Sequence record: PP706156.1
Direction: 5' to 3' (one strand)
DNA: 51,689 nt
Origin: Klebsiella phage LAPAZ
The stretch's first letter is position 1. Each line of letters begins with the position of its first letter. The position numbers and the translations under genes were made by a program. The notes under the pieces were generated by a model, which was given only the letters and a program-made list of their open reading frames with translations, searched no databases and had not been told where the DNA came from. Positions 3,958-35,288 of this stretch are shown in pieces.

Positions 3958-4724
3958 TGTAATTCCTCTACGTTATTAAAATCGGGAACCGCCCAGCAAC
4001 GGCAACCGTACTCCTCGCCGGGAAAAATGCCGTCACCGTTTACGCGGCGTCGCTTACCTTCTAGTTTGATGTGGCTTTCGCGTTCGCGGTCGTCCATCAT
4101 GCCGAACCAAAAGTAATGCGATACTTTAGCATCTTTTAGTCGCTGCATCATCAACATACTGTTAAAACTTCCGATAATGCCGCTCGCCCGGTTTCGCGAC
4201 CAACTGCCATAAATGGCGTATCGGCCCTCGATGATTTCATCGATCTGTTCGCGAGTCTTGCCGATGTTGTTGGCGGTTCGAACTTTCGTTGTCCAGTCAG
4301 CGACGATATCGGCTGTTAACTTCTGGATTGATGCCTTTGCGGTATCCTGCCATTTCTTCAGCGCCTGCTGATACCACTGCTCATAACCACCAGCGCCGAA
4401 CTCCTTCAGCATCATGACCGCTTCATTATCGCGCCCGCCAGCCGCCAGTGCAACAACCAGCCACTGCTTAGAGTTGAAGCGGTAGATAGTCAGGCCAATG
4501 GAGGCCAGCGCCGCAATGACGGCAGCAAAGAACGCGATCGCCGCCTCGTTGATATCGTCTTCCGCCTCGTTGATTTCCTCCGCCGTGGCGTCGAACTTCA
4601 GGCGGTCTAACCGATCCCGCATTTCCACCACCAGATCGGTTGTCGCGTCCTGCATCAAGCGGGATAAATCCCGCTCGCTTGCTTCAGGATAACGCCAGTT
4701 TGGAATTCTGCCGTTAACTTTCAT
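3954..4724 (-). CDS. Head morphogenesis protein (Mu gpF / SPP1 gp7-like), 256 aa
   Basis: Immediately downstream of portal with overlapping start/stop. Typical size and position for a MuF-like minor head protein. Confidence 0.55.
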   Translation of the reverse strand: MKVNGRIPNWRYPEASERDLSRLMQDATTDLVVEMRDRLDRLKFDATAEEINEAEDDINEAAIAFFAAVIAALASIGLTIYRFNSKQWLVVALAAGGRDNEAVMMLKEFGAGGYEQWYQQALKKWQDTAKASIQKLTADIVADWTTKVRTANNIGKTREQIDEIIEGRYAIYGSWSRNRASGIIGSFNSMLMMQRLKDAKVSHYFWFGMMDDRERESHIKLEGKRRRVNGDGIFPGEEYGCRCWAVPDFNNVEELQ

Positions 4725-9109: not shown

Positions 9110-9334
9110 TTAAGCCTTCTCCCATTCGACCCAGGTTCCGCGAGCAATGAAGATCTCGACACGCAGAGGGGCGTTGAAATTTTTGTAGATGAAGATGAAA
9201 CCTTTTTTGCTATCGGTTTCGACCTGTGTAACCGGGAAGGCCAGCGGAGTAATCATATCGACCGACTCACTCATCTGGATACCCGTTACCGTTGCGCCAA
9301 TCGGCATATCTTCGACTTTTGAGAACTCAGACAT
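9110..9334 (-). CDS. Hypothetical protein (74 aa)
   Basis: ORF in the leftward early array. Confidence 0.45.
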   Translation of the reverse strand: MSEFSKVEDMPIGATVTGIQMSESVDMITPLAFPVTQVETDSKKGFIFIYKNFNAPLRVEIFIARGTWVEWEKA

Positions 9335-9403
9335 AGAATCACCTTAATGAAATTTGCGCCCGCCAGAATCGCTTACAGGCGCTTTAAATGGTATACGAAT
9401 TCG

Positions 9404-9979
9404 TTAATTTTTCAAGTGGTGGCACGGCTCGCCATCTTTAACGGCTCCCCACTGGCGGCGCTTGTTCCGCTCCAGCTTTTCCGCCACCGCCACTGCCAAC
9501 TGCTCATCGGTGATTCCGGCGCGGCGGGTTGCGTCCCACACCAGCATGATGATATCGGCGAACTCGCTAATGTCATCCGGCGCTTCGGCGGCTTCGTTGG
9601 CCTCTTTAGCCAGGTGTTTCAGCGGGCCGACCGGGCCAACGTTGCCGAACTGGCGATCCGACCATTCCGCGTGCGCCTGCCGGACAAGGCGGAAGGGATC
9701 CCGGACTGACTCAGCATCGAAGCTGCAAAGGTACAGATCTTTCCACGCCGCCGGGTCGTTTTGCACCTGGCGCATTTCATGCAGTACGGCGTCAACATCC
9801 ATCTTCTCAGGCCAATTGACCTGGAAGGATTCCGGCTGGCGGATGTATTCGACCACTTCGCCGCCCAGCACGCGCTGCTGCATTTCAGCCTGCGCTTTCG
9901 TGTCGCAGGTGAGGCGGCGCGATTTGCGCCCCTCGTTAGTCCCGATAGTGTAGGTCAGTACCCAAATTTTGTTGTTCAT
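9404..9979 (-). CDS. Putative nucleotide pyrophosphohydrolase (MazG-like / DUF550-like), 191 aa
   Basis: The C-terminal helical segment …EANEAAEAPDDISEFADIIMLVWDATRRAGITDEQLAVAVAEKLERNKRRQW resembles the MazG EExxE/D metal-binding helices. ATGA overlap with the upstream gene. Confidence 0.4.
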   Translation of the reverse strand: MNNKIWVLTYTIGTNEGRKSRRLTCDTKAQAEMQQRVLGGEVVEYIRQPESFQVNWPEKMDVDAVLHEMRQVQNDPAAWKDLYLCSFDAESVRDPFRLVRQAHAEWSDRQFGNVGPVGPLKHLAKEANEAAEAPDDISEFADIIMLVWDATRRAGITDEQLAVAVAEKLERNKRRQWGAVKDGEPCHHLKN

Positions 9980-15716: not shown

Positions 15717-16243
15717 ACCTTTTCCCCTTTGATTCTGGCTTTCAGTGCCATCGTGTACCCATTGTAAAGCAAGCCCTTTGGCATCACTTCGTCAACGATC
15801 GACAAAACCCTTTCCCGTTCAGAGTGAACGCCCTGCTGCCTGTAAGCATCGGCCTCCAGGTCACGTCCCGCGCTATCATCGAACTCAGTGGACACGATGA
15901 TTAACCCGGCTCCCAGGCTTACGCGCAAGACCTCGCCAGGCTCAAGGAGTTTTAGCAGTGGTCGGCGGAAGTGGTTATCGACGGGATGCACGCCGAATTT
16001 TTCCGTGAACTGATCTGCTGTCATCTGGATACGTCGCCCGCCATCCAGGAACATGCGCCGGATCTCCTTCGAGCGGTTGCCTGTGAACGTGCCTTCGTTG
16101 GCCCGGCCAGCCTGGTGATTGCCTTCCGGCTCCCCGAACGTGATCGATTGCAGCCATTCATGGTACGCGGCCTGCTTTTCTGCGTCGTACTGCATCCACT
16201 CGGACACGTCGACTTCTTCGAACTCATAACCTTTGTATTGCAT
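15713..16243 (-). CDS. Hypothetical protein (176 aa). First gene of the leftward early operon.
   Basis: ATG at 16243 with SD GGGGGAG. Immediately downstream of the AT-rich control region. Confidence 0.5.
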   Translation of the reverse strand: MQYKGYEFEEVDVSEWMQYDAEKQAAYHEWLQSITFGEPEGNHQAGRANEGTFTGNRSKEIRRMFLDGGRRIQMTADQFTEKFGVHPVDNHFRRPLLKLLEPGEVLRVSLGAGLIIVSTEFDDSAGRDLEADAYRQQGVHSERERVLSIVDEVMPKGLLYNGYTMALKARIKGEKV

Positions 16244-16433
16244 GTTTCTCCCCCACATTTGCGGCGTTTGTAAGCGTTTGGTAAGGCCATCTTACTTGCT
16301 CCAGGCCTTGCCGTCAAAGGGTTTGTGCGTGTGTGGTAAGATTCGTAAGCATCCCCCATATATGCCTATACCACCAGGCGGCGGCGGAACATCTAAAATT
16401 TATGGCTCTCGCAAGATGATTCCGGTAGCCATG

Positions 16434-16532
16434 CCGGGAGAAATCTTACCAAACATATATAGATAGAGAGAGTAATAATAATAATATTGTTATTTATCAT
16501 ATACTTATATATCTATTATAGGCTTATATTGG
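16434..16532 (+). repeat. ~100-bp AT-rich element, copy A, flanked by the GGTAAGAT-containing sequence CCGGGAGAAATCTTACC
   Basis: About 85% identical to the reverse complement of 33176..33276. Contains (GA)n and a (TAA)4 run. Confidence 0.8.
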
Positions 16533-16822
16533 TCACTTTTTGTGCAATTTTCAGGTAAGATTTTTCCTCCCCCACATTCCCACACGACGCAAATGTTGGT
16601 GAAACACAAGGCACGTTTTGGCAGGATTCGAACGGCGAATTATGTGCATAGTGCATGCATCTATGCAATTCGTTGCACATCATGAAACACTCCATCATCA
16701 CATTGCACAGAATGAAACAATCACAATCAATCATGAATCGTCAAAAGTAATCACCAGGAAGTCAGATGCAATCACAGCCTATTCCAATATTCCGAATGGA
16801 TGGAATAATCGACAATCGGAGG

Positions 16823-16867
16823 AATAGCACAAATAATCAAAATCTGGCTGGTGGGATCGGGTATAGT
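16823..16867 (+). promoter_or_regulatory. Degenerate promoter cassette (box AATAGCACAAATAATCAAAA, -10 TATAGT) for the rightward early operon
   Basis: Box-to-(-10) spacing of 22 nt is preserved. Leader CATCAACCAATCACGGAG. Confidence 0.45.
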
Positions 16868-17864: not shown

Positions 17865-17908
17865 ATAGCACTTTTTGTTAAAAGCCCAGCGTGGGCTTTT
17901 GCTATTAT
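17865..17908 (+). promoter_or_regulatory. Conserved promoter cassette (box AATAGCACTTTTTGTTAAAA, hairpin GCCCAGCGTGGGC + TTTT, -10 TATTAT). The hairpin doubles as a terminator.
   Basis: Member of the repeat family. Confidence 0.5.
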
Positions 17909-21682: not shown

Positions 21683-23251
21683 ATGTTTTTAAATGACCGC
21701 GTGTCCCCACAAGATATTATTGCCATCGCAGAGAAGGAAGGCATCAGCCCCTTGCGCGTCGCCATCCGTGCGAACGGGTATCGCGACTCCGTTTCTTTCT
21801 GGCCCAAGCCGAAAGATATCGACGTAAACGCGGACAAGTATCCCACGATCTCGATCGCGAATGATTACGATATCGTCGGCAAGCTGGCGCTCAATGCTGC
21901 TCGCTCCGTTCAATTCCCGGAATCATCGGCTTATATGCATTTCCTCGGAACCGTGTCCGCCGCGATGATGGGTCGCTTTTGGGTGGAGTACCACGGCAGC
22001 GAGCAACCAACGACGCTTTACGTCATTACGTCGCAGCCGCCTTCCGCTGGTAAGTCTGCGATTAACTCGCTGGCTATCGATCCGATCGTCGCAGAGGTTG
22101 AGCGAATCAACGAGGCGCGCAAGAAAGAGCGCAAGAAAATCATGGCGAAGTTGTCCGCCAACAAGCAGGCCATGAAAGGAGAGTTATCGCAGTCCGATAT
22201 GGCGAAACTATTCGAAGACAAAGACGAACTTGAGGAGAAGTTAGAAAGCATGTGCGATCTGACGTTCCCCGTTTCCGATACCACGCCGGAAGGCCTGGCG
22301 AAAATCAACAATCGGCAAGGCAATTTTGCGGTTATCTCGGACGAAGCGACAGCGGTTAACAGCCTGTTAGGGATCACGTATGGCAACGACGGCGGCAAGA
22401 AGACGAACAGCGAACTGGTGTTGAAGGCGTGGGATAAGGGCCACGTATCGATCGCACGTTCCGACGTCAGTAACAATATGTCATTCGTCGCGCTGGGCTG
22501 TATTTGCGTAATTGCCCAGGATGAAACCATCGACGCCATCATGCAAGCTGGTTCTCGCGGTATCGGTGTATCAGAGCGTTTCCTTTTGGTTCGCGAGCAA
22601 ACGCGGTTAGGTGAGCGTGTGTTCATTGACGAAAACGGGAATTCGACCTATGAGCCGATCGACAAGTCTTTACGCGCTGATTACTTCCGCCTCATTCATG
22701 ACATTATGACGGAATCGTATATCAAGCTGGAAGTGACTGAAGCAGGCATGCGTCGGCTGAACAAGGCACGCCAGGAGTTAGAGCCGGAATTAGGCGACGG
22801 CGGGAAGTATTCGCATACGATGCTGCGCGGTGCGATGGGTAAATTCGATAAGCAGGTGATGCGCCTGGCGTCGGTAATCCACACGATCCGCAACTGGCAA
22901 CCTGGCGGCAAGCGCTCGAAGAAGATCGGAACCGAAACGATCGACGAAGCCATCATCATGTTTCATGAGTTGAGCAAAACGTATTTGTCGTCGGCTGATT
23001 CGTCCGGCTTCGCTGGTGAGGGCGCGGAGATTAAGGCGGTGTACGATGTTATCGCCAGCCGTGGCAAGCAGGCGAAAGGCGTGATGACGGTTCAGAGCAT
23101 CTATAACGCGTGCCGCAATCTGAAGATCTTCAAAGGTCAGTCCGGGGTGAGCAAAAGGATTAAGGAAAAATTGCTGCCGAAGATGGAGGAATTAGGGTTC
23201 ATCTGCGTGATTGATTCAGAGGTCTTTATTAACCCTTCGTTCATGAGGTAA
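21683..23251 (+). CDS. DUF3987-family P-loop ATPase (primase/helicase-associated), 522 aa
   Basis: Walker A embedded in YVITSQPPSAGKSAIN, which is the characteristic DUF3987 context. SD CAGGAG. Confidence 0.5.
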   Translation: MFLNDRVSPQDIIAIAEKEGISPLRVAIRANGYRDSVSFWPKPKDIDVNADKYPTISIANDYDIVGKLALNAARSVQFPESSAYMHFLGTVSAAMMGRFWVEYHGSEQPTTLYVITSQPPSAGKSAINSLAIDPIVAEVERINEARKKERKKIMAKLSANKQAMKGELSQSDMAKLFEDKDELEEKLESMCDLTFPVSDTTPEGLAKINNRQGNFAVISDEATAVNSLLGITYGNDGGKKTNSELVLKAWDKGHVSIARSDVSNNMSFVALGCICVIAQDETIDAIMQAGSRGIGVSERFLLVREQTRLGERVFIDENGNSTYEPIDKSLRADYFRLIHDIMTESYIKLEVTEAGMRRLNKARQELEPELGDGGKYSHTMLRGAMGKFDKQVMRLASVIHTIRNWQPGGKRSKKIGTETIDEAIIMFHELSKTYLSSADSSGFAGEGAEIKAVYDVIASRGKQAKGVMTVQSIYNACRNLKIFKGQSGVSKRIKEKLLPKMEELGFICVIDSEVFINPSFMR

Positions 23252-23254
23252 TGA

Positions 23255-23716
23255 ATGTTTATCCTTGACATTTACCGATTCTGCGAGTCTCGCCGGGAAT
23301 TCACCCGGCAAGATTTTGCGAAGTTCGTTTACATGCACCGCGAATCGCCACGCATGGCAAAAGCCGCCAACGTGTCACACCGTATGTTCGCCTCAATGGT
23401 TTCTAAGGAGTTTTTAGCGCGAAGCTATACGAATGGATACCTGGACGGAAAAAACGGCGTGGTGTGGTGTACTGGCCCGGATAACAGGGAGATTGGATTT
23501 AACTTCCGGTCGTTTGAAGGGATGGACAACAAATACATGTGGGAGATGATGCACATTGAGCAACTCGACGATGAAGCCCTATTCGGGAAAGCAGGTGGAA
23601 GATCTGATAACGGAGGTTCACAGGATTGTTTGCGTGAATCAGATCACACCAGAAAATTACTTGCGTGCCGCGCTCACCTTGCTATATCAAGGCATGGCCG
23701 CGACAAACACGGTTGA
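23255..23716 (+). CDS. Hypothetical protein (153 aa). The C-terminal third may be out of frame; see finding.
   Basis: SD GAGG. The C-terminus is low-complexity and overlaps a more protein-like +1 frame. Confidence 0.4.
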   Translation: MFILDIYRFCESRREFTRQDFAKFVYMHRESPRMAKAANVSHRMFASMVSKEFLARSYTNGYLDGKNGVVWCTGPDNREIGFNFRSFEGMDNKYMWEMMHIEQLDDEALFGKAGGRSDNGGSQDCLRESDHTRKLLACRAHLAISRHGRDKHG

Positions 23717-28150: not shown

Positions 28151-28879
28151 TCAGATCCCACGTTTGCGCATGCGCTTTTTAGTTAATGACGGGCAGATTT
28201 CGCTTACAGGGACGTAGAACGTTTTTTGCTCCTCGCCCGGCTTGAGTTTGCGCATGATGAAAATCACGCTGCCCTTGTTGTTGTTGTCGACTGGCTTCCC
28301 GCTTAGGCCGTTGATGAAGGCCAGGCGACCGGATCGGCTTAGTTGCGTTCCGTCTTCATCCTCCGTGACGTCTGCGACAATCCAAATGATCTCAGCCGCT
28401 GCCTTTTGTGCGTCTCGGAACCACGCTGTAGAGTTGTCGCCGGGAAGCAAAATATCGATCTGGTTGTCATGCTCCATCTGCTCAATGGCTTTCAGCACAA
28501 AGGGATCCGGGAACGAGTAAGGAGGGTTAAGCCAGACGTGCTTATTTTTCCCCCACCAGCGCTTGAGGCAATCTGTCTTTTCGTCGTAAAACTTCGGGCA
28601 GACGGTGTTGCTTTCCTCTGCGGCGGCGTCCAGGTCGTATGGCCCGTAACGCTCCTCCATGTAAGCAATAAGGCTGCGATCGGTTGACCACTTGTCGCGG
28701 ACGATATCCGGCGTCTTGCTCCCGGCGTAGCGGTTGCCCGTTACCTGGTAGAATTTATCAGGCTTGACGGCTTGATAGTGTCCGCCAGTGGCAAGCGCGT
28801 TGCCTATGAACGTTTCACGTTCAAGCTGTTCAAACGTCGTGAACGCGTCGTGAGTGTCTTTGTCAGCTATATCTTTCAT
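28151..28879 (-). CDS. dam: DNA N6-adenine methyltransferase (phage Dam family), 242 aa
   Basis: NPPY catalytic motif (WLNPPYS). Phage-type Dam architecture. Confidence 0.75.
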   Translation of the reverse strand: MKDIADKDTHDAFTTFEQLERETFIGNALATGGHYQAVKPDKFYQVTGNRYAGSKTPDIVRDKWSTDRSLIAYMEERYGPYDLDAAAEESNTVCPKFYDEKTDCLKRWWGKNKHVWLNPPYSFPDPFVLKAIEQMEHDNQIDILLPGDNSTAWFRDAQKAAAEIIWIVADVTEDEDGTQLSRSGRLAFINGLSGKPVDNNNKGSVIFIMRKLKPGEEQKTFYVPVSEICPSLTKKRMRKRGI

Positions 28880-28984
28880 TTAGAAACCCTTAAAATGACC
28901 AGCAAGAGTAATTACCCAAAGGCCGAAGCCAGTGGCAACAACGCCAAAACCTATTGATGCGATTACCCACAAGAAGTTTTTCAT
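28880..28984 (-). CDS. Hydrophobic micropeptide (34 aa, MKNFLWVIASIGFGVVATGFGLWVITLAGHFKGF). Not in the ORF track, which omits ORFs under 60 aa.
   Basis: SD AAGGAG. Downstream of the cassette at 29014..29061. Its TAA stop abuts the Dam ATG (TAAATG). Confidence 0.4.
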   Translation of the reverse strand: MKNFLWVIASIGFGVVATGFGLWVITLAGHFKGF

Positions 28985-29016
28985 GATGTTTCTCCTTTCT
29001 TCGTTTCGATGGGAGA

Positions 29017-29061
29017 ATGATACCCGGCTTTCGCCGGGCAGTTTTAACAAAAAGTGCTATT
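29017..29061 (-). promoter_or_regulatory. Conserved promoter cassette (box AATAGCACTTTTTGTTAAAA, hairpin CCCGGC…GCCGGG, -10 TATCAT)
   Basis: Member of the repeat family. Confidence 0.5.
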
Positions 29062-29464
29062 TGATGGCATCGCAGAAAGCGATCTTGAATTGCTCGAATC
29101 CATAGGCCACGGCAGCGAACCCGCCACGGCTTCGGACGGCTGCGAGGAATTCCCGTTGCTCCTTGCTCACTGGCGATGCCTGGGATTTACCCTGGCGCTT
29201 TAGCTCAATGGCGGCGAACGGGTATTTGCCGCCCAGCCCAATCAGCACAAGGATATCGCTTACGCCTTTGAGTAATCCCATTTGATGATCTGCAACGGCG
29301 CTCGCCTTGTGCTTGCTGCCCTCGTTGACCGTATGCCAGAACAGATAATCGGGGTATTCGTAACGCAGCCACGAAACGCTGTTCATCTGGTCGATTTTTT
29401 CAAGCGGGCAAGCCTTTACAGGCCCGCCGTAATATTCGAGGTAATCCCCTTTGTCTGTAATCAC
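29057..29464 (-). CDS. VRR-NUC domain nuclease (PD-(D/E)xK), 135 aa
   Basis: GVSDILVL … AIELKRQG motifs. GTG start with SD GGAGG, overlapping the helicase TGA stop. Confidence 0.55.
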   Translation of the reverse strand: MITDKGDYLEYYGGPVKACPLEKIDQMNSVSWLRYEYPDYLFWHTVNEGSKHKASAVADHQMGLLKGVSDILVLIGLGGKYPFAAIELKRQGKSQASPVSKEQREFLAAVRSRGGFAAVAYGFEQFKIAFCDAIK

Positions 29465-31497
29465 TCCTCGCCTCCAAAGTCTTTGCGGGAAATAATGTCC
29501 TCCTTCTTGCCGTTGATGCGATGCGTTACGCGCTTCGGAGCGCGGAAGTATTCCGCATACTCCAGGATTTTGCGGGCGTTTTTCATGCCGCCCAACTTGC
29601 CACGCATTACAGCATCATCAACATGCTGGAAGACTGCCTTTTGTCGCCACAACTTACCGCAAATCGCACTTTCTGACTCAGGGAAGAATTTTTCCCTGGC
29701 CGTGAACCGCTCGCCGTCATGGTTGAGCAACACGTAATTAAAGATGATCCCGCTTTGGTTTCGTGTCAATCCCAAATCAAAGCCTACAACCTGATACCAG
29801 TCATTTTGCGTGTAATGCTTCCCGGTGAGGTTGTCGTTAGGATCCTTTAACTGCACGCCACAACATCTGCACTGGCGCGCCACAATGTCGTTTTCAGCGT
29901 GGCATCCCTTGACCTTGATTTTCCCCGTCCTCGGATCCTTTTGGTCTTCGCAGCGCTGGGACGTCCAAAAATACTCGCACCGATTGCCGTTACTATCCTT
30001 GTGGATGCAGCGGCGGGCGTACTCGCTATTTTCGCCTTTGCAGACCGGGCAAATTTTCGGGCCGTTCTTGCTGCTCTTGCGCTTCTGATACTGCGCCTGC
30101 TCAAGAATCGGATCGAAATACAACTGGCCCAGGTCATCCATTGTTCCGGCAAAATCCCAGACAAGGTGATCTTCTTTCACCCACGAATAGGGCGCTTCCT
30201 TCTGCCAGTCTTTGAGCAATCGCATTCCTCGCCCCAAAAGCTGAATCAGCAACGTCAGAGAACCGATCTTGCGAAGGATTACAGAAAAATCCCAAAACGG
30301 AACGTTAACGCCAGTCGTTAGGGCCATCACCTGGAAGATGTACTTAATCTCGCCCCGGTTCGCCTTGTCCAGAATTTCACCGCGTTTCTTCGAGTTCGTC
30401 TTCTCTGTGATGATCGCGTATGTGGCGTCCGGCGGTAAGTAGCTCGCCGCCTCCTTACAGTGGCGCTGGCCCGCGCAAGTGATAAGCACGCCGTTTCGCG
30501 TCTGCGCACGCTCGACCACCTTCTGCATAATAAGTTTAGTCATTTCGCCGGAATCGTGGATTTTCTTCTCCATCTTGCGCAAGTCTTCCGCGCTAAAATC
30601 CTGCGTGCCGTCCTGACTGGAGCCGTGAAACTCTGACAGGTCATAGCCCAGGCCGTCGGCCTCAGTGTCACCAAAGATTGTCGGAACCACCGAACCGAAT
30701 TCGACAAGGTAGTTTGTGTTAATGTCCGTGATCTGCTCGCGCCAGAAACCAGGCTGGCTCTTGTCTTCCTGTAAGATCGGAATGACGCCGCGAAACTCCG
30801 AACCAGTGTAGCCAACGATGCGAAGTTCTCGCCCCGTCTTCTGAAGGCAACGGCGCATTAACTCGATGATTACGATGGTGTATTGAGTGCGCCCTCCGCC
30901 AAATTCAACCGTTTCGAACTTTTCGTTGTACGGGTAATCGGCATCGACGATCTCACCATTCACGCGATACGGCTTATCCTTTGCGCGGCTCATGTACTCG
31001 AAGGATTCATCGTTCGCGATCGCTTCTGCGAGGTCTTGCCAGTCAACCTGATGGCATTCGTCGATTGCCAGGACTGAAGGCACGTAATCGCCCAGCATCT
31101 TAAACAGGCCATTAACCACCGTCCCTTCGGAGCCGACGACGATCGGGAAGTAAGCCGCCTTTGTGCCTAACCCGGCGCAATAAACGGAGTTTGGCACGTC
31201 AAGATTGCTGATTTCTTCGGAATCCTGCTTCACGATCTCGGCCTGCCTGGCGAGAACCATCATAGGCAAGTTCATTGTTTTGCACTGCGCCGCGAGCATG
31301 GCGATCATGATTGTCTTGCCTGCGGATACGGACGCCTTAATGTAGAACGGATGCTCATAGTTCGCGATCCGCTTCGCCGTCTCGATGTACGCGACAGCCT
31401 GGTAAGGGTACGGAACGATATTCCCGACCGTGAACCGCTTTTGAATAGATGGGATCTTGTCTGCGTAGGCTTCAATTTGTTGTTCAATTGTCAGCAT
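29461..31497 (-). CDS. SF2 DNA helicase with C-terminal Cys-rich zinc-finger region, ~678 aa from ATG at 31497
   Basis: Walker A SAGKT, DECH box, helicase C-terminal motifs, and multiple CxxC pairs near the C-terminus. Preceded by the cassette at 31534..31577. Confidence 0.75.
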   Translation of the reverse strand: MLTIEQQIEAYADKIPSIQKRFTVGNIVPYPYQAVAYIETAKRIANYEHPFYIKASVSAGKTIMIAMLAAQCKTMNLPMMVLARQAEIVKQDSEEISNLDVPNSVYCAGLGTKAAYFPIVVGSEGTVVNGLFKMLGDYVPSVLAIDECHQVDWQDLAEAIANDESFEYMSRAKDKPYRVNGEIVDADYPYNEKFETVEFGGGRTQYTIVIIELMRRCLQKTGRELRIVGYTGSEFRGVIPILQEDKSQPGFWREQITDINTNYLVEFGSVVPTIFGDTEADGLGYDLSEFHGSSQDGTQDFSAEDLRKMEKKIHDSGEMTKLIMQKVVERAQTRNGVLITCAGQRHCKEAASYLPPDATYAIITEKTNSKKRGEILDKANRGEIKYIFQVMALTTGVNVPFWDFSVILRKIGSLTLLIQLLGRGMRLLKDWQKEAPYSWVKEDHLVWDFAGTMDDLGQLYFDPILEQAQYQKRKSSKNGPKICPVCKGENSEYARRCIHKDSNGNRCEYFWTSQRCEDQKDPRTGKIKVKGCHAENDIVARQCRCCGVQLKDPNDNLTGKHYTQNDWYQVVGFDLGLTRNQSGIIFNYVLLNHDGERFTAREKFFPESESAICGKLWRQKAVFQHVDDAVMRGKLGGMKNARKILEYAEYFRAPKRVTHRINGKKEDIISRKDFGGEE

Positions 31498-31510
31498 GGT
31501 TAATCCTGAT

Positions 31511-31538
31511 TTGTCATTCGCATGGTTGCGTGTATAAT
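31511..31538 (+). promoter_or_regulatory. Near-consensus sigma70 promoter (TTGTCA-16-TATAAT) driving the rightward HTH-primase operon
   Basis: TTGTCA at 31511..31516 and TATAAT at 31533..31538, ~50 nt upstream of ATG 31588. Shares its -10 region with the divergent helicase cassette. Confidence 0.6.
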
Positions 31539-31577
31539 ACAGAGCAAATTTTATCGTGTTTAACAAAAAGTGCTGTG
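31534..31577 (-). promoter_or_regulatory. Promoter cassette for the helicase gene (box CACAGCACTTTTTGTTAAAC, -10 TATTAT). Back-to-back with the rightward sigma70 promoter.
   Basis: Box variant. The -10 overlaps the complement of the plus-strand TATAAT. Confidence 0.45.
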
Positions 31578-31587
31578 AGGTTAAATT

Positions 31588-31989
31588 ATGGAACAAATGG
31601 CAAAGGTAGACAAGCGAACTTTGAACGGCAATAACGGGACGTCACGCGGGAAAGATAAGAAGCCCCGCAAGAAGCCGACAGGCTATTACGTCCTGAAGGA
31701 TGAAGTAAGGGCGGGCCTGACTACCCGGATGGAATTGGTGATCGAGGCATACGGCGGCATCGCCAAAACAGCAAAGGAGTTGGGCGTTAGCATCCAGGTT
31801 GTTCAGCAGTGGATTAAGCGCGGCATGATTTCAGCCGATGGTGCTTACCTGGTTCATAAGAGTTACCGCCGCAATGACTGCAAAGGCTTCAGGGCTTCAT
31901 TTTGCCGCCCGGATCTCAGATTCGACAGCAACGGCAAGCCGATTACGCGCCGCTGCGACCGCCGCGAAATGCTTCGCGTAGTCCGATAG
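31588..31989 (+). CDS. HTH DNA-binding protein (133 aa). Candidate immediate-early regulator.
   Basis: HTH IAKTAKELGVSIQVVQQWIKRG and a basic N-terminus. First gene downstream of a near-consensus sigma70 promoter. SD GAGGT. Confidence 0.55.
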   Translation: MEQMAKVDKRTLNGNNGTSRGKDKKPRKKPTGYYVLKDEVRAGLTTRMELVIEAYGGIAKTAKELGVSIQVVQQWIKRGMISADGAYLVHKSYRRNDCKGFRASFCRPDLRFDSNGKPITRRCDRREMLRVVR

Positions 31990-32009
31990 CACAATTTGAC
32001 TAACTACTA

Positions 32010-32050
32010 AACGCCTACCGGGTTATGATTCTCGCGTGGGCGTTTTTTTT
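32010..32050 (+). terminator. Terminator/attenuator after the HTH gene
   Basis: AACGCC…GGGCGTT hairpin followed by T8. Confidence 0.5.
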
Positions 32051-32066
32051 ATTTGGAGGTTATGAC

Positions 32067-33029
32067 GTGGATTTTTACGACGAAAAAGAGGTTTTGCCAT
32101 ACATGCCGGGGATGTGGCGCGAGGCGCTACAAAATATTTGCGGCATCCACTCCCGCTATTTCAACGGCAAACACCAGGACTGCCCTAACTGCGGCGGTAA
32201 GGATCGCTTCCGCTGGACTGACAAATTAGAGAATCGCGGCGACGGCGGGGCATATTGCAGCGGCTGCGGTGCCGATAAGGGGATCGGATGGTTAATGAAG
32301 TTGAGCGGCGAGCCGTATAGCGAGTGCATCAACATTCTTGGGCGATACCTGGGCAAAGTTCCGCAAGAGTACGTAGTTAAGCGCAACAAGCAGGTTACTC
32401 GCGATAACGGGTACGACTATGGCAAGATGGCAGATCACGATCGCGTCGTGGCGATAATGAACAGAACGGAGGCCGTCGACAGCACGCCTGTAACGCTCTA
32501 TGAGGGCATTGAAAATGAGTTCGTTGAATCATACCGGGTTGGCGTAAAAACCCACGAGAACGGCAGGCAAGAGCTATTTCATGCACTCCCGATGCAACTG
32601 GTGCATGAAGACGGGCCGGACGATGAATACTGCAACATCTTATTCATTGATGAGGAGGGCCGCGAGAAGATGTTAGCTGGCGACCTGACTTTCGGATCGG
32701 TGATCGTAACCAATCAGAGCGAAGGCGGTAACGGGCCAATTTACCTGGCTCGCTCTTGGGTGGAGGCGATGCACTTCAATATCGCAAGCTCGTTTAAGTG
32801 TGACGTGTGGGCATGCATCATCCCGTCCAACGTTGAGATCGTGGCCTACCGATATAAAGGAAAGGGCGGCGGCGAAGGCAAGCGAGAATTGCGAGTAGTA
32901 TGCAGCAGGAAAGATCGGGATATGCTGGCGGCGGCTGAAGAACGCGATATGAAAGTTATCGTGCCGAACAATGACAACTTCAAAGGCGGATTCGAACGAA
33001 AGCTCTACGTGGCATCATCCCTTCTCTGA
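32067..33029 (+). CDS. DNA primase (zinc-ribbon + Toprim-like), ~320 aa from GTG at 32067
   Basis: CPNCGGKDRFRW…CSGCG zinc ribbon. Acidic Toprim-like FIDEEGRE. SD GGAGG 7 nt before the GTG. Confidence 0.65.
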   Translation: MDFYDEKEVLPYMPGMWREALQNICGIHSRYFNGKHQDCPNCGGKDRFRWTDKLENRGDGGAYCSGCGADKGIGWLMKLSGEPYSECINILGRYLGKVPQEYVVKRNKQVTRDNGYDYGKMADHDRVVAIMNRTEAVDSTPVTLYEGIENEFVESYRVGVKTHENGRQELFHALPMQLVHEDGPDDEYCNILFIDEEGREKMLAGDLTFGSVIVTNQSEGGNGPIYLARSWVEAMHFNIASSFKCDVWACIIPSNVEIVAYRYKGKGGGEGKRELRVVCSRKDRDMLAAAEERDMKVIVPNNDNFKGGFERKLYVASSLL

Positions 33030-33137
33030 TTAAAACGTGAACAAATTTTAGGTAAGATTGATAATTTCAGTCTTACCTTTTTTTATGCCCAAAATTCATC
33101 GACTTACCAACTGGTCGACCACTTTAAGTAAGATTAG

Positions 33138-33153
33138 GTAAGATGCATCTTAC
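33138..33153. promoter_or_regulatory. Perfect 16-bp palindrome GTAAGATGCATCTTAC (iteron/operator-like), copy 1
   Basis: Exact palindrome. Repeated at 33391..33406. Begins a ~45-bp direct repeat. Confidence 0.6.
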
Positions 33154-33175
33154 GTAAATTTCGCTCATTTTTTAA

Positions 33176-33276
33176 CCAATATCGCACCATAGAATATATA
33201 TAAGTATATGATATCTAACTATATTATTATTATTACTCTCTCTATATCTCTCTGTGTAGGTAAGATTTTCTCCGGG
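33176..33276 (-). repeat. ~100-bp AT-rich element, copy B (inverted relative to copy A)
   Basis: Reverse complement aligns to 16434..16532, including the flanking GGTAAGATTTTCTCCGGG. Confidence 0.8.
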
Positions 33277-33390
33277 TATATGTATTTTGCTTTGCGATTT
33301 CGGCCCAATTTTCCTGTGAATATTTACCTATAGGCATCTTACCATCTTACCGATTTGGGTTAACCGCATGAAATATATAAAGAAAATCAC

Positions 33391-33406
33391 GTAAGATGCA
33401 TCTTAC
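33391..33406. promoter_or_regulatory. Perfect 16-bp palindrome GTAAGATGCATCTTAC, copy 2
   Basis: Identical to copy 1. Followed by the repeated sequence CTTACGTAAATTTCGCTCA(C/T)TTTTT(G/A)ACCA. Confidence 0.6.
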
Positions 33407-33448
33407 TAAATCTTACGTAAATTTCGCTCACTTTTTGACCAGTTGGCG

Positions 33449-33492
33449 AATAGCACTTTTTGCCTTGCACCCGGAATCGTGATGCGTATACT
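33449..33492 (+). promoter_or_regulatory. Promoter cassette variant (box AATAGCACTTTTTGCCTTGCAC, -10 TATACT) for the exonuclease-ERF-SSB operon
   Basis: Box conserved. Spacing to the -10 is 21-22 nt. Confidence 0.45.
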
Positions 33493-33525
33493 TAACGCAA
33501 CGAAACCACAATAGGAGCAATATCA

Positions 33526-34572
33526 ATGGCTGAAGCAATTTTTAAGGCATACACCAACGCGGAATTATCCAACGATGATTACCACGATCCTAACTCCTGG
33601 TGCGCCAGATACGTTAGCGGCTCAAGCCTCGGTGAGATTTACGCAACCTCCCCGGCCCACTGGAAATACAAGGAGCGAGAAGAAACAGCCGCGCTTTCAT
33701 TCGGCACTTGCTCCCATACCTGCATGCTTGAGACGTCCAAATTTAATGGCGAGTACCTGCGAGCGACCGCGCCGGGCGACGTTAAGGATCTGATTACTTC
33801 GAAATCGGCATTGTCTGCGAAATTGAAAGCGTGTGGCCTGATTGGGACGTCCAACAAGGACTACCCCGAATTGCTGGAAATGGCATACCGCGCCGGGATT
33901 GATGTTAACGTGTGGTGGGCGATCGAACTCTGCGACGAAAGCGCCGCCATCAACTCAGGCCGGAAGCTGGTCAAGGATTCTGATTTCGATGCGGTCGTGC
34001 AAATGCGAAACGTGATGCTGGCTAACCCACGGCACGCGGCGTGCATTGAATCGGATACAGCGCAACGCGAGTTGTCAATCTTCGGCGAAATTTTCGGCGT
34101 CCCGGTAAAGGTTCGGCTCGATCATGTTGACGTCGTGTCGGATCCCGAACTCATCAAAGAGTGGGGGTTTAACCCGGATGAAGTTTTCGAAGTGGTGGTG
34201 ATTACCGACTACAAAACTACTCAGACCTCTAAACCGGATGACTTCGGGCGGCTGGCGTTCAACTTGGGCTACTATCTCAAAATGGCATTGCAGCGCGATC
34301 TGTTCGTTAAGACGTACAACGAAAAACGCCCGGTTGTTGTCCGCCTGCTGACGCAGGAGAAAAAATCACCGTTCGCGCCTCTCGCGTTCACGTTAACGGA
34401 TCAGCAGATTGAGATCGGGCGGAAGCAGTATCAAAGCGTGATTCACCAGTACGCCGAATGCGTCAAGCATGACGTTTGGCCGTCATACGAATCGAACGCA
34501 GCGGAAGTGAAGTTGCCCACGCCGCAATTCGTGAAATACATGTTCCCGGAAGTATACGGCACAAATAGCTAA
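33526..34572 (+). CDS. RecE/YqaJ-like 5'-3' exonuclease (PD-(D/E)xK), 348 aa
   Basis: LDHVD … EVVVITDYKTT nuclease motifs. Position directly upstream of the ERF recombinase. SD AGGAG. Confidence 0.6.
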   Translation: MAEAIFKAYTNAELSNDDYHDPNSWCARYVSGSSLGEIYATSPAHWKYKEREETAALSFGTCSHTCMLETSKFNGEYLRATAPGDVKDLITSKSALSAKLKACGLIGTSNKDYPELLEMAYRAGIDVNVWWAIELCDESAAINSGRKLVKDSDFDAVVQMRNVMLANPRHAACIESDTAQRELSIFGEIFGVPVKVRLDHVDVVSDPELIKEWGFNPDEVFEVVVITDYKTTQTSKPDDFGRLAFNLGYYLKMALQRDLFVKTYNEKRPVVVRLLTQEKKSPFAPLAFTLTDQQIEIGRKQYQSVIHQYAECVKHDVWPSYESNAAEVKLPTPQFVKYMFPEVYGTNS

Positions 34573-34631: not shown

Positions 34632-35288
34632 ATGCGTACATCTGAAAGTTTCAAAGAGATCGCCGTTGCGTTAATCAAAGCGAAGTCTGGCTTCGTCGCC
34701 GCGAAGAAAAGCGGGAAGAATAGCCACCTGGGGAACACCTACGCCAATCTCGGCGATATCCTGGACGCCATCGGGCCATCGCTGGAAAAGAACAAAATTA
34801 TGGTCATTCAATCAATGATGGATACCAGCACCGACAAGGTTATGCACCTTGAAACGATGTTCCTGCACGAATCTGGCGAGTGGATGGCGTTTCAGTTCAA
34901 TATGCCGATCAGCAAAACCGTTGAGCAAGCGTATGGTTCGACAACCTCATACGCTCGCCGTTATGCGTTAGCCGCCGCGCTGGGCATCAAGCAGGCCGAC
35001 GATGACGCAGAGATCGCGAAGATGAAGCCGCAAGACTTCAAAAAACGCATTGATGCGTGCGAAGACCTCGAATCTCTCCGCGAGATTTACAAGCTGGCTA
35101 AACAGACGTTGACGCCTGCGGAATGGAAGGTGACGGAAGACGATATCACGAAGCGCCAGGCGCAACTAAAAGTGACGCCAGCGAACGGATTTAACCCCGG
35201 CAAGCCGCAAGAGGTTGCGAAACGTGATCCGGAACAGGTAGAATCAAAGCCTGAACCTGAAGCACAAGATATCTCATCTTTCAACTAA
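34632..35288 (+). CDS. erf: ERF-family single-strand annealing protein, 218 aa
   Basis: Hallmark STTSYARRYAL motif. Adjacent to SSB. Confidence 0.8.
   Translation: MRTSESFKEIAVALIKAKSGFVAAKKSGKNSHLGNTYANLGDILDAIGPSLEKNKIMVIQSMMDTSTDKVMHLETMFLHESGEWMAFQFNMPISKTVEQAYGSTTSYARRYALAAALGIKQADDDAEIAKMKPQDFKKRIDACEDLESLREIYKLAKQTLTPAEWKVTEDDITKRQAQLKVTPANGFNPGKPQEVAKRDPEQVESKPEPEAQDISSFN

What the first reader, a model, noticed from the sequence alone, without database searches (positions are those of the whole stretch)
33040..33445. Iteron-like array between primase and exonuclease: GGTAAGAT repeats, two perfect GTAAGATGCATCTTAC palindromes and a ~45-bp direct repeat
The 33.04-33.45 kb intergenic region contains at least 8 GTAAGAT/ATCTTAC motifs. 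These include GGTAAGATTGATAATTTCAGTCTTACC, a 7-bp inverted pair. There are also two exact 16-bp palindromes (33138..33153 and 33391..33406). Each palindrome starts a direct repeat, GTAAGATGCATCTTAC(…)GTAAATTTCGCTCA(T/C)TTTTT(A/G)ACCA, and the second copy carries an internal TAAATCTTAC duplication. This is the classic architecture of an iteron/operator cluster bound by a dimeric initiator or repressor. It sits next to the primase and the AT-rich element, which supports an origin.
Basis: seen in the sequence. Interest (0 to 1): 0.7.

Follow-up and report, generated by a model that had tools for sequence, protein, structure and literature searches.

The report
Candidate replication origin of T1-like phage
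The repeat cluster is real, and it is one of two copies of a conserved element (short phage-specific repeats flanking the most AT-rich DNA in the genome) that is most likely the still-unidentified replication origin of T1-like (Drexlerviridae) phages.

Summary
The window is a complete Webervirus genome (a T1-like Klebsiella phage). GTAAGAT occurs 16 times against 3.7 expected: 10 copies lie in 33052-33416 and 4 in 16289-16561. Both 16-bp palindromes and the ~45-bp direct repeat are exact as described.

The array is one of two homologous modules. Each has repeats on both sides of an AT-rich core, and the two cores are the most AT-rich 60-mers in the genome. The ten heptamers are almost invariant across 36 distinct Weberviruses, while the surrounding DNA is only about 80% conserved.

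Every Drexlerviridae genus examined has the same two-locus architecture with its own repeat: GTGTAACA in T1, GTGAACA in TLS, and others. More distant phages carry a single copy directly upstream of a DUF3987 helicase gene.

That helicase (window 21683-23251) models as MCM-like with a fast-evolving C-terminal winged helix. This matches the design of SaPI Rep-and-iteron origins.

Best reading (about 0.6): these are iteron-type replication origins bound by the phage helicase-initiator. The main rival (about 0.2) is an operator array for the nearby HTH regulator. All evidence is computational. The first inverted pair also reads as the primase terminator.

The parts
33050..33085 (+). Hairpin built from an iteron inverted pair (GGTAAGA...TCTTACC, 12 pairs counting G-T) followed by T7. 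It is terminator-like, lies just after the primase stop codon, and is the leftmost pair of iterons in locus B.
   Evidence: A terminator is annotated at the equivalent place in PhiKpNIH-10. KMI8 keeps the repeats there but has no T-run.
33127..33154 (.). Left iteron cluster of locus B: AGTAAGAT(+), GGTAAGAT(+) and CGTAAGAT(-). The last two form perfect palindrome 1 (33138-33153).
   Evidence: Each heptamer is exact in 35-36 of 36 Weberviruses.
33147..33178 (+). Conserved spacer and direct-repeat unit ATCTTAC-GTAAATTTCGCTCATTTTTTAACCA (copy 1). The same unit recurs at 33410-33441 and, inverted, at 16561-16525.
   Evidence: The block CGCTCA..TTTT is conserved in KMI8 at both loci.
33180..33258 (.). 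AT-rich core of locus B, proposed as the DNA unwinding element. It contains TATATATAAGTATATGATA and (TTA)4, and is the second most AT-rich 60-mer in the genome (33189-33248, 83% AT).
   Evidence: It is an inverted copy of 16431-16512 (86% over 84 bp).
33259..33266 (+). Iteron GGTAAGAT abutting the right edge of the AT core.
   Evidence: Exact in 36 of 36 Weberviruses. Conserved in KMI8.
33336..33351 (-). Tandem pair of GGTAAGAT iterons on the minus strand (ATCTTACCATCTTACC).
   Evidence: Conserved in KMI8.
33390..33441 (.). Right iteron cluster: palindrome 2 (33391-33406), a third iteron at 33410-33417(-), and copy 2 of the direct repeat (33410-33441).
33446..33492 (+). Not part of the array. 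This is the promoter-type element for the recE-erf-ssb operon: an ATAGCACTTTTTG box, then TTGCAC (33465-33470), a 16-nt spacer, and TATACT (33487-33492).
   Evidence: It corresponds to the 21-nt intergenic repeat described in TLS (PMC11447400).
16280..16561 (.). Locus A, the second (inverted) copy of the element, in the divergent early intergenic region. Iterons are at 16289-16296(-), 16335-16342(+), 16443-16450(-) and 16554-16561(+), with a partial GGTAAGG at 16280. The AT core is about 16451-16530 and includes the most AT-rich 60-mer in the genome (16471-16530, 87% AT).
   Evidence: Conserved across Weberviruses.
16289..16317 (-). Promoter-like site TTGACG-17-TAAGAT for the leftward early operon. 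Its -10 hexamer is an iteron.
21683..23251 (+). DUF3987 MCM-like helicase of 522 aa with a C-terminal lid and winged-helix domain (about aa 445-522). Proposed iteron-binding initiator-helicase.
   Evidence: Pfam PF13148, E 8e-38. AF2 models with pLDDT 87 and 89. The top 50 Foldseek hits are all MCM subunits. The C-terminal domain gives winged-helix hits. The winged helix evolves faster than the core and tracks the motif class.
32025..33029 (+). Zn-ribbon DNA primase, homologous to the N-terminal primase domain of P4 alpha.
   Evidence: tblastn with P4 alpha gives E 1e-8.
31588..31989 (+). 133-aa Cro/YdaS/MerR-like HTH protein annotated as a transcriptional regulator. It is the alternative candidate binder.
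   Evidence: Conserved across Drexlerviridae. Absent from L011, L013 and L057.

Best explanation
The 33.04-33.45 kb array (locus B) and its inverted partner at 16.28-16.56 kb (locus A) are most likely the replication origins of this T1-like phage. Each has an AT-rich unwinding core flanked on both sides by 8-bp iterons (GGTAAGAT) in opposed orientations.

Proposed mechanism, all of it inferred. The phage's MCM-like DUF3987 helicase (21683-23251) recognises the iterons through its C-terminal winged-helix domain. It self-assembles on both sides of the core and melts it. The P4-alpha-type primase (32025-33029) then primes, and host DNA polymerase III elongates. RecE/Erf/SSB, encoded just downstream of locus B, later drive recombination-dependent concatemer formation.

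Shown here: the motif statistics, the two-copy architecture, its conservation, the lineage-specific repeats, and the fold of the helicase. Inferred: that the helicase binds the iterons, that the core melts, that replication starts there, and what the two copies do relative to each other.
For: (1) Confinement: 14 of 16 GTAAGAT and 8 of 9 GGTAAGAT lie in two loci that make up under 2% of the genome.
(2) The two cores are the two most AT-rich 60-mers in the genome, at 0.87 and 0.83 against 0.75 for the next.
(3) Footprint: across 36 distinct Webervirus sequences (75-98% identical), iteron columns are 99.7% conserved against 80.2% for the rest (p = 2.6e-12). Each heptamer is exact in 33-36 of 36. 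KMI8, from another genus, keeps the repeats and the core while the flanks diverge.
(4) Architecture is conserved but the repeat is lineage-specific: GGTAAGAT (Webervirus, KMI8), GTGTAACA (T1), GTGAACA/GGAACA (TLS, aaroes), GTAAC (C119), GGTAACAC, GTGTTAAT, TAACAAC, TTGTACGC, TATGCCCA, GGGGAAG and CCTTACCGGAA in other lineages. In every case there are at least two copies on each side of an AT core. This implies a co-evolving phage-encoded binder.
(5) In distant phages (L011, L013, L057) the single element lies in the divergent intergenic region at the head of the operon that encodes the DUF3987 helicase; in L011 and L057 only a 72-73-aa ORF separates it from the helicase gene, in L013 a 215-aa gene does. 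No homolog of the HTH regulator is present in those loci.
(6) The helicase models as MCM-like, with all top 50 PDB hits being MCM subunits (E from 3e-5). It has a C-terminal winged helix. This agrees with Kazlauskas et al. 2016 (PMC4889955). A DUF3987 protein has been shown experimentally to be a primase-binding helicase (PMC11724360).
(7) The winged helix diverges faster than the helicase core (for example 36% against 70% between Webervirus and C119). It is most similar between phages that share a repeat: 68% for TLS-aaroes and 54% for Webervirus-KMI8, against 25-48% across motif classes. Identity of the HTH regulator does not track the repeat.
(8) The architecture matches SaPI origins: 6-12 iterons of 5-6 nt, an AT-rich centre, at least two iterons per side in opposite directions, and binding by the winged helix of Rep (PMC9371898).
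(9) Locus B lies in an apparently untranscribed gap between a terminator-like hairpin and the next promoter-like element.
(10) The TLS 2024 paper found no origin in TLS and the SU57 paper none in SU57, and my literature searches found no mapped origin for T1-like phages.
Against: There is no experimental evidence of binding, melting or initiation. GC skew follows transcription only and gives no origin signal. The helicase gene is 5 kb from locus A and 10 kb from locus B, not adjacent as in SaPIs. The covariation between winged helix and repeat rests on 9 lineages and is confounded by phylogeny. One same-motif pair, T1 and L012, has only 34% winged-helix identity. Perfect 16-bp palindromes are more typical of dimeric HTH operators, and an HTH regulator gene lies directly beside the primase gene. 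One iteron coincides with the -10 of a good early promoter. Locus A lies in the region where early promoters must be, and within a few hundred bp of the mapped pac end in T1 and TLS. Why two copies exist is unexplained.
Confidence: 0.6

Rival explanations
1. Operator array. The repeats are binding sites for a phage transcription factor, most obviously the 133-aa Cro/MerR-like HTH protein at 31588-31989. It would switch off the divergent early promoters at locus A and modulate the recE-erf-ssb operon at locus B. On this reading the AT-rich cores are UP-element or bent promoter DNA.
For: There are two perfect 16-bp palindromes typical of dimeric HTH operators. An HTH regulator gene lies next to the primase gene and is conserved in 830 phage records. 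The iteron at 16289(-) is the -10 of TTGACG-17-TAAGAT, facing the leftward early operon. Locus A sits exactly where the two early transcription units diverge. Locus B always lies upstream of recE in the same orientation. Lineage-specific repeats fit a phage-encoded regulator equally well.
Against: Only 1 of 15 sites has a usable -35. The repeat of T1 (GTGTAACA) does not resemble a -10 hexamer (own reading of the motif), and the last TLS repeat cluster lies about 110 bp upstream of the recE promoter (own count on the sequence printed). The recE promoter element is separate, and its -35 lies about 60 bp downstream of the last iteron. Ten or eleven sites spread over 370 bp around an 80-bp AT core is origin-like rather than operator-like. 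Regulator identity does not track the repeat: Webervirus-aaroes is 68% with different repeats, and TLS-aaroes is 55% with the same repeat. Phages L011, L013 and L057 have the element but no regulator homolog in the 18-21 kb examined.
Confidence: 0.2
2. Dual-purpose or bipartite system on the P4 model. One locus is the true origin, and the other is a cis-acting enhancer like P4 crr that shares the same repeats and is looped to it by the initiator.
For: Two dispersed loci share the same octamer, as in P4 ori and crr. The primase is homologous to the P4 alpha primase domain. The TLS repeat core TGTTCAC is identical to the P4 type-1 repeat TGTTCACC.
Against: No homolog of the alpha helicase or C-terminal origin-binding domain was found. 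Both loci carry a full AT core, whereas in the P4 record only the ori region reads as having an AT-rich stretch (own reading of the sequences printed). Distant relatives manage with one locus.
Confidence: 0.1
3. Packaging or recombination site. The repeats would be terminase (pac) recognition sites or RecE/Erf recombination hot spots.
For: Locus A lies about 200 bp from the sequence start of T1 and TLS, which was set at or near the mapped pac end. P1-type pac sites also have repeats flanking a central region (from memory). Locus B abuts the recombination operon.
Against: T1 and TLS show a single pac fragment, but there are two elements. In distant phages the element is linked to the helicase gene, not the terminase gene. 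A different repeat-rich stretch at 16600-16800 is a better match to the T1 and TLS physical ends.
Confidence: 0.05

Closest known systems
SaPI (staphylococcal pathogenicity island) ori with the Rep self-loading helicase
   Same: Short iterons are arrayed in two sets on either side of an AT-rich centre, with at least two per side in opposite directions. The initiator is itself a hexameric helicase with a C-terminal winged helix that reads the iterons. A separate or fused primase is present. Iteron sequence differs between elements and defines specificity (PMC9371898).
   Different: Here the helicase is a DUF3987 protein whose best structural matches are all MCM subunits. SaPI Rep was not among the top 50 fold hits. 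The origin is not immediately downstream of the helicase gene. There are two copies per genome. The host is a virulent siphovirus of enterobacteria. Nothing has been tested biochemically.
Satellite phage P4 ori/crr with the alpha protein
   Same: Two separated cis loci carry the same octamer repeat (TGTTCACC, 16 copies). The Drexlerviridae primase is homologous to the alpha N-terminal primase domain. The TLS repeat core is identical to the P4 repeat.
   Different: P4 fuses primase, SF3 helicase and winged-helix origin binder in one protein. No homolog of the last two parts was detected here. The Webervirus repeat is GGTAAGAT. Both loci here have an AT core.
Lambda-type ori (O-protein iterons plus an AT-rich region)
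   Same: Repeated sites with internal symmetry lie next to an AT-rich region and are bound by a phage initiator.
   Different: Lambda iterons are about 19 bp, number four in tandem, and lie inside the O gene. The host DnaB helicase is recruited through the P protein. Here the sites are 8 bp, lie on both sides of the core, and are intergenic, and the phage encodes its own helicase.
21-nt intergenic repeat of TLS and T1-like phages (aaATAGCACnnnTTGnTAAAA)
   Same: It is also a repeated non-coding element of T1-like phages, and one copy lies at the right edge of the finding (33450-33462).
   Different: It is a different sequence, occurs upstream of many genes and co-oriented with transcription (14 exact copies), and is already described (PMC11447400). 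The GGTAAGAT array is distinct from it. The TLS paper reports no lambda-type iterons inside the helicase gene or anywhere else in the TLS genome.

Membership tests
Iteron-flanked AT-rich origin with a helicase-initiator (SaPI ori/Rep type) | Multiple short (5-8 nt) repeats in two sets on either side of an AT-rich region, at least two per side, in opposite orientations | tested here: met
   Locus B reads + + + - [core] + - - + - -. Locus A has the same order, inverted. The same layout occurs in 12 other lineages.
Iteron-flanked AT-rich origin with a helicase-initiator (SaPI ori/Rep type) | The central AT-rich segment is the easiest DNA in the replicon to melt | tested here: met
   The two cores are the top two AT-rich 60-mers in the genome, at 0.87 and 0.83 against a genome mean of 0.48. 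This uses composition only, with no SIDD or melting assay.
Iteron-flanked AT-rich origin with a helicase-initiator (SaPI ori/Rep type) | The element encodes a replicative helicase with a C-terminal winged-helix DNA-binding domain | tested here: met
   DUF3987. The AF2 full-length model resembles MCM. The C-terminal winged helix is modelled at pLDDT 87. This is a prediction, not a solved structure.
Iteron-flanked AT-rich origin with a helicase-initiator (SaPI ori/Rep type) | The ori lies directly beside the rep gene | tested here: not met
   In the window the helicase gene is 5 kb from locus A and 10 kb from locus B. The element lies in the intergenic region at the head of the helicase operon only in the distant phages L011, L013 and L057.
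Iteron-flanked AT-rich origin with a helicase-initiator (SaPI ori/Rep type) | The initiator binds the iterons specifically and melts the AT region, and replication starts there | not testable with these tools
   This needs EMSA or footprinting, KMnO4 probing, and marker-frequency or 2D-gel analysis.
P4 ori/crr-alpha system | Two separated cis loci share the same octamer repeat | tested here: met
   Loci A and B share GGTAAGAT and a 133-bp homologous module. P4 was checked.
P4 ori/crr-alpha system | An alpha-type protein with primase, SF3 helicase and C-terminal origin-binding domains | tested here: not met
   Only the primase domain (alpha aa 14-262) has a homolog. Nothing matches the helicase or origin-binding part at tblastn E below 10.
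P4 ori/crr-alpha system | Repeat sequence TGTTCACC | tested here: not met
   The window repeat is GGTAAGAT. Only TLS shares the core TGTTCAC.
DnaA/oriC-type origin | DnaA boxes, a cluster of GATC sites, and IHF sites | tested here: not met
   Both loci have no DnaA boxes, no IHF consensus and no GATC (about 6 GATC expected).
Lambda-type origin | Iterons inside the initiator gene, with O/P-type initiator proteins | tested here: not met
   The arrays are intergenic. The TLS paper also found no iterons within the helicase gene. O/P homologs were not searched for specifically.
Cro/CI-type operator array | Palindromic sites that overlap the -35 or -10 of the regulated promoters | tested here: inconclusive
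   Two perfect palindromes exist. Only 1 of 15 sites overlaps a plausible promoter. No transcription start-site data are available.
Cro/CI-type operator array | A cognate HTH regulator that co-varies with the operator sequence | tested here: inconclusive
   The regulator is present. Its identity does not track the repeat class, and it is absent from three phages that have the element. The sample is small.
Rho-independent terminator (33050-33085 only) | A stable hairpin followed by a T-run, downstream of a stop codon | tested here: met
   A 12-pair stem followed by TTTTTTT lies 21 nt after the primase stop codon. It is annotated as a terminator in PhiKpNIH-10.

The most novel reading that the evidence does not exclude
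T1-like phages use a two-site origin system read by an MCM-like, self-loading helicase. The two inverted iteron and AT-core modules cooperate, either as ori plus enhancer in the P4 manner or as two origins firing in opposite directions. Iterons that overlap early promoters couple the onset of replication to the shut-off of early transcription. This would be the first defined origin for a DUF3987/MCM-like bacterial-virus helicase. It would give a simple bacterial model of MCM-type origin recognition by a winged-helix domain.
Probability: 0.2. Interest if true: 0.75.

Novelty: new member of a known kind. Interest (0 to 1): 0.58.

Why it matters
T1 is one of the classic T phages, and its family (Drexlerviridae) includes hundreds of Klebsiella and E. 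coli therapy candidates. The 2024 TLS re-annotation found no iterons anywhere in the TLS genome, the SU57 paper found no oriC-like origin, and my searches turned up no mapped origin for the family.

This analysis gives two precise, testable candidate origins per genome, a rule for finding them in any family member, and a named candidate initiator. If it is confirmed, three things follow:
- It would define how DUF3987/MCM-like phage helicases find their start sites.
- It would explain replication specificity between co-infecting T1-like phages.
- It would supply parts for phage engineering, such as origin-carrying plasmids or satellites, and for interpreting marker-frequency data.

Tried and rejected
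- Sigma-70 -10 boxes: TAAGAT fits TAnnnT, but only 1 of 15 sites has a -35, and the T1 and TLS repeats do not resemble a -10 hexamer (for the sites; own reading of the motifs).
- Small gene: the 41-aa ORF 33208-33333, annotated 'hypothetical' in relatives, is intact in 29 of 36 sequences. Variable sites are spread 23/19/19 over the three codon positions, and KMI8 has a stop at codon 3. It was rejected as coding.
- Known RNA family: no Rfam match at E <= 1 in either locus.
- GC-skew origin signal: the cumulative skew only mirrors gene orientation.
- Host-factor origin: no DnaA, IHF or GATC sites.
- P4 alpha origin-binding domain homolog: none by tblastn. 1KA8 was not among the top fold hits for the winged-helix model.
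- PDB sequence searches with the primase, the helicase and the 153-aa neighbouring ORF gave nothing useful.
- One literature search on transcription start sites returned only irrelevant papers.
- Searching for the AT-richest 60-mer picked coding DNA in L053, L054 and L058. L054 was resolved by inspecting the intergenic region directly. L053 (contig end) and L058 (rearranged) gave no clear element.
- Plasmid search: the only hit is a 49.6-kb 'Paraclostridium plasmid' that is probably a misfiled Webervirus.
Full report
**What the window is**

The 3.3 kb around the finding is 98.7% identical to Klebsiella phage vB_KpnS_CS_ER23 and matches 346 phage records, almost all of them Klebsiella phages. 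At least one close relative is classified as Webervirus in the family Drexlerviridae. The 51.7-kb window is therefore a whole, circularly permuted T1-like phage genome.

The genes around the finding are:
- an SF2 helicase at 29461-31596 (-);
- a 133-aa HTH 'transcriptional regulator' at 31588-31989 (+);
- a Zn-ribbon primase at 32025-33029 (+);
- the intergenic region 33030-33525;
- exonuclease VIII/RecE at 33526-34572;
- Erf at 34632-35288, followed by SSB.

**Checking the observation**

- GTAAGAT occurs 16 times against 3.66 expected, and no shuffle reaches 16. Ten copies lie in 33052-33416, four in 16289-16561, and two are strays.
- The full octamer GGTAAGAT occurs nine times, eight of them in the two loci.
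- The two perfect 16-bp palindromes are at 33138-33153 and 33391-33406.
- The direct repeat is 33147-33178 against 33410-33441, at 94% identity. The extra TAAATCTTAC in copy 2 is as stated.

Three points refine the picture.
- The leftmost inverted pair (33050-33078) is followed by T7 and scores as an intrinsic terminator for the primase gene. It is annotated that way in PhiKpNIH-10.
- The right end of the intergenic region (33446-33492) is a different element. It has an ATAGCACTTTTTG box followed by TTGCAC-16-TATACT. This belongs to a family of 14 exact copies that are all co-oriented with transcription. It is the 21-nt intergenic repeat already described for TLS (PMC11447400).
- The AT-rich core with its flanking repeats (33147-33279) is an inverted copy of 16561-16431, at 76% over 133 bp with an 84-bp stretch at 86%.

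The order of sites around the two cores is the same: (-) spacer, core, (+), then (-)(-), then (+)(-).

**The second copy**

Locus A lies in the intergenic region from which the two early transcription units diverge. ATAGCAC boxes are on the minus strand to its left and on the plus strand to its right. The two cores are the two most AT-rich 60-mers in the genome, at 87% and 83% AT. The next highest is 75% and the genome mean is 48%.

**Is the element under selection?**

I collected 36 distinct Webervirus versions of locus B that are 75-98% identical to the window. The 70 iteron columns are 99.7% conserved, against 80.2% for the other 346 columns (Mann-Whitney p = 2.6e-12). Each heptamer is exact in 33-36 of the 36 sequences.

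KMI8 belongs to another Drexlerviridae genus. Its flanks have diverged beyond easy alignment, yet the GGTAAGAT sites, the CGCTCA..TTTT spacer block and the (TTA)n core persist at both of its loci.

A 41-aa ORF across the core is annotated 'hypothetical' in some relatives. It shows no third-position bias (23/19/19 variable sites) and is broken in KMI8, so it is not coding. There is no Rfam match.

**Family-wide comparison**

Every Drexlerviridae genome I examined in full has the same two elements. One lies just upstream of the recE-erf-ssb operon and in a fixed orientation relative to it. The other lies in the divergent early intergenic region, which corresponds to the sequence ends in T1 and TLS. 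The short repeat differs between lineages:

| Phage or locus | Repeat |
|---|---|
| Webervirus, KMI8 | GGTAAGAT |
| T1 | GTGTAACA (TGTAACA: 6 copies inside the loci, 0 outside) |
| TLS, aaroes | GTGAACA / GGAACA |
| C119 | GTAAC |

Further lineages reached through homologs of the helicase show an AT core (69-93% AT where measured) with at least two repeats on each side:

| Locus | Repeat |
|---|---|
| L012 | GGTAACAC |
| L054 | GTGTTAAT / AACACG |
| L055 | TAACAAC |
| L056 | TTGTACGC |
| L057 | TATGCCCA |
| L011 | GGGGAAG (plus GGGTTA) |
| L013 | CCTTACCGGAA |

A conserved architecture with a lineage-specific repeat points to a co-evolving, phage-encoded sequence reader. It argues against a host factor or a bare promoter hexamer. 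Consistent with that, only one of 15 sites has a usable -35: TTGACG-17-TAAGAT at 16317 to 16289, facing the leftward early operon. Neither locus contains a DnaA box, an IHF consensus or a single GATC, although about 6 GATC are expected.

**Who reads the repeats?**

There are two candidates.

(a) The 133-aa HTH protein beside the primase gene. It gives weak Cro/YdaS/MerR-like matches, and its best PDB hit is RacA at E 0.005. It is conserved in 830 phage records.

(b) The 522-aa DUF3987 protein at 21683-23251 (PF13148, E 8e-38).
- Its AF2 model (pLDDT 89, pTM 0.87) has only MCM subunits among its 50 best PDB matches, with E from 3e-5 and probability 1.00.
- Its last ~80 residues fold as a classic winged helix preceded by lid helices. 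The matches include the MCM4 winged helix, MukE, MarR, and the lid-plus-winged-helix regions of ORC/Cdc6 and RuvB. These matches have high probability but weak E-values.
- This agrees with Kazlauskas et al. 2016, who classed DUF3987 proteins as SF6/MCM-like replicative helicases with a C-terminal wHTH (PMC4889955).
- A DUF3987 protein has been shown to be a helicase that binds its primase (PMC11724360).

Three observations favour candidate (b).
- The winged helix evolves faster than the helicase core in every comparison, for example 36% against 70% between Webervirus and C119.
- Winged-helix identity is highest between phages that share a repeat: 68% for TLS-aaroes and 54% for Webervirus-KMI8, against 25-48% across classes. 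Regulator identity does not track the repeat: Webervirus-KMI8 is 68%, Webervirus-aaroes is 68%, and TLS-aaroes is 55%.
- The distant phages L011, L013 and L057 carry the element in the intergenic region at the head of the helicase operon. They have no homolog of the regulator in the 18-21 kb examined.

This evidence has limits. It covers nine lineages, it has no phylogenetic correction, and one same-repeat pair (T1 and L012) shares only 34% winged-helix identity.

**Comparison with known systems**

The closest match in design is the SaPI origin. It has 6-12 iterons of 5-6 nt, an AT-rich centre, and at least two iterons on each side in opposite directions. They are read by the C-terminal winged helix of the self-loading Rep helicase, with a separate or fused primase (PMC9371898).

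The second is P4. Its record annotates 16 'type 1' repeats (TGTTCACC) split between ori and the distant crr. The Drexlerviridae primase is homologous to the primase domain of P4 alpha (E 1e-8 to 2e-11). The TLS repeat core TGTTCAC is the same as P4's. The alpha helicase and origin-binding domains have no homolog here, so this is a resemblance in logic and not membership.

Lambda-type and oriC-type origins fail their defining features.

**Conclusion and weights**

I put about 0.6 on 'these are the phage's replication origins'. Within that, I put roughly 0.45 overall on the DUF3987 winged helix being the iteron reader.

The main rival is an operator array for the HTH regulator, at about 0.2. It is kept alive by the perfect palindromes, the neighbouring regulator gene, the promoter-overlapping iteron, and the position of locus A at the early-promoter hub. 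The two functions could also coexist.

A P4-like ori-plus-enhancer division of labour gets about 0.1. A packaging or recombination role gets about 0.05. The latter is disfavoured because there are two elements but one pac fragment, and because a different repeat-rich stretch (16600-16800) corresponds to the T1 and TLS ends.

**Novelty**

The TLS paper reports no lambda-type iterons inside the helicase gene or anywhere else in the TLS genome, and the SU57 paper found no oriC-like origin in SU57. My literature searches found no description of these arrays.

The kind of element is known: an iteron-flanked AT-rich origin with a helicase-initiator. This would be a new member of that kind, in a classic phage family. 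It has two unusual features: two dispersed copies, and an MCM-like helicase.

All functional steps remain inference until binding, melting and initiation are measured.

Noticed in passing
window 10316-33462 (14 exact sites, for example 33450-33462, 31986-31998, 17865-17877): ATAGCACNNNTTG occurs 14 times exactly, against about 3 expected with one mismatch allowed. It is always co-oriented with transcription and lies upstream of genes. Its orientation flips at locus A. This is the 21-nt intergenic repeat reported for TLS, whose function is still listed as an open question.
   Followed up: partly
window 16600-16830: To the right of locus A lies a TGCA-rich stretch with repeated ATGAAACA/TGCAC motifs (gcatagtgcatgcatctatgcaattcgttgcacatcatgaaaca...). 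It corresponds in position to the sequence ends of T1 and TLS, so it is a better candidate for the pac region than the iteron array. Other genera have their own repeats there, for example GTCATTTTGAC in KMI8 and L012 and GACCGATTGGTC in TLS and L012.
   Followed up: partly
window 16243-16733 and 33030-33525: Both loci contain no GATC sites, although the genome has 312 (about 6 expected in 987 bp) and encodes two DNA methyltransferases. This is the opposite of the GATC clustering seen in oriC.
   Followed up: partly
window 33208-33333 (+) and 16500-16393 (-): Small ORFs of 41 and 35 aa start at the same ATG inside both AT cores and are annotated as hypothetical proteins in several GenBank relatives. 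Their substitution pattern (23/19/19 by codon position) and their loss in KMI8 indicate annotation artefacts.
   Followed up: yes
L006 (TLS) 28707-29165 and 1-588; L007 (P4) 4291-4590 and 9310-9413: The TLS repeat core TGTTCAC/GTGAACA is identical to the type-1 ori/crr repeat of satellite phage P4 (TGTTCACC). The TLS and T1 primases are homologous to the P4 alpha primase domain. This may reflect shared ancestry of the replication modules, or it may be coincidence.
   Followed up: partly
L005 (T1) about 395-425: T1 locus A also carries a tandem triple CGATTAACACGATTAACACGATTAACC. GATTAACA occurs 5 times inside the loci and once outside. L054 uses a related GTGTTAAT repeat. This suggests a second class of repeat, or a composite site, in some lineages.
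   Followed up: no
plasmid record CP124687.1, 19967-20358: A 49.6-kb 'Paraclostridium bifermentans plasmid' matches locus B at 80% over 97% of its length. It is probably a Webervirus genome misfiled as a plasmid or a contaminant.
   Followed up: no
phage records MG065685, MG065643, MG065687, MG065688: Twenty 'Campylobacter phage' records encode a T1-type regulator that is 64-70% identical to the window's. They look like Drexlerviridae (E. coli-type) genomes and may carry wrong host labels.
   Followed up: no
window 23255-23716 (+): A 153-aa ORF lies directly after the DUF3987 helicase gene and is conserved across the family at 43-53% identity. Its TLS homolog is annotated as an 'HTH domain protein'. 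It has no Pfam or PDB match here and is absent from L011. Its role beside the helicase is unknown.
   Followed up: partly
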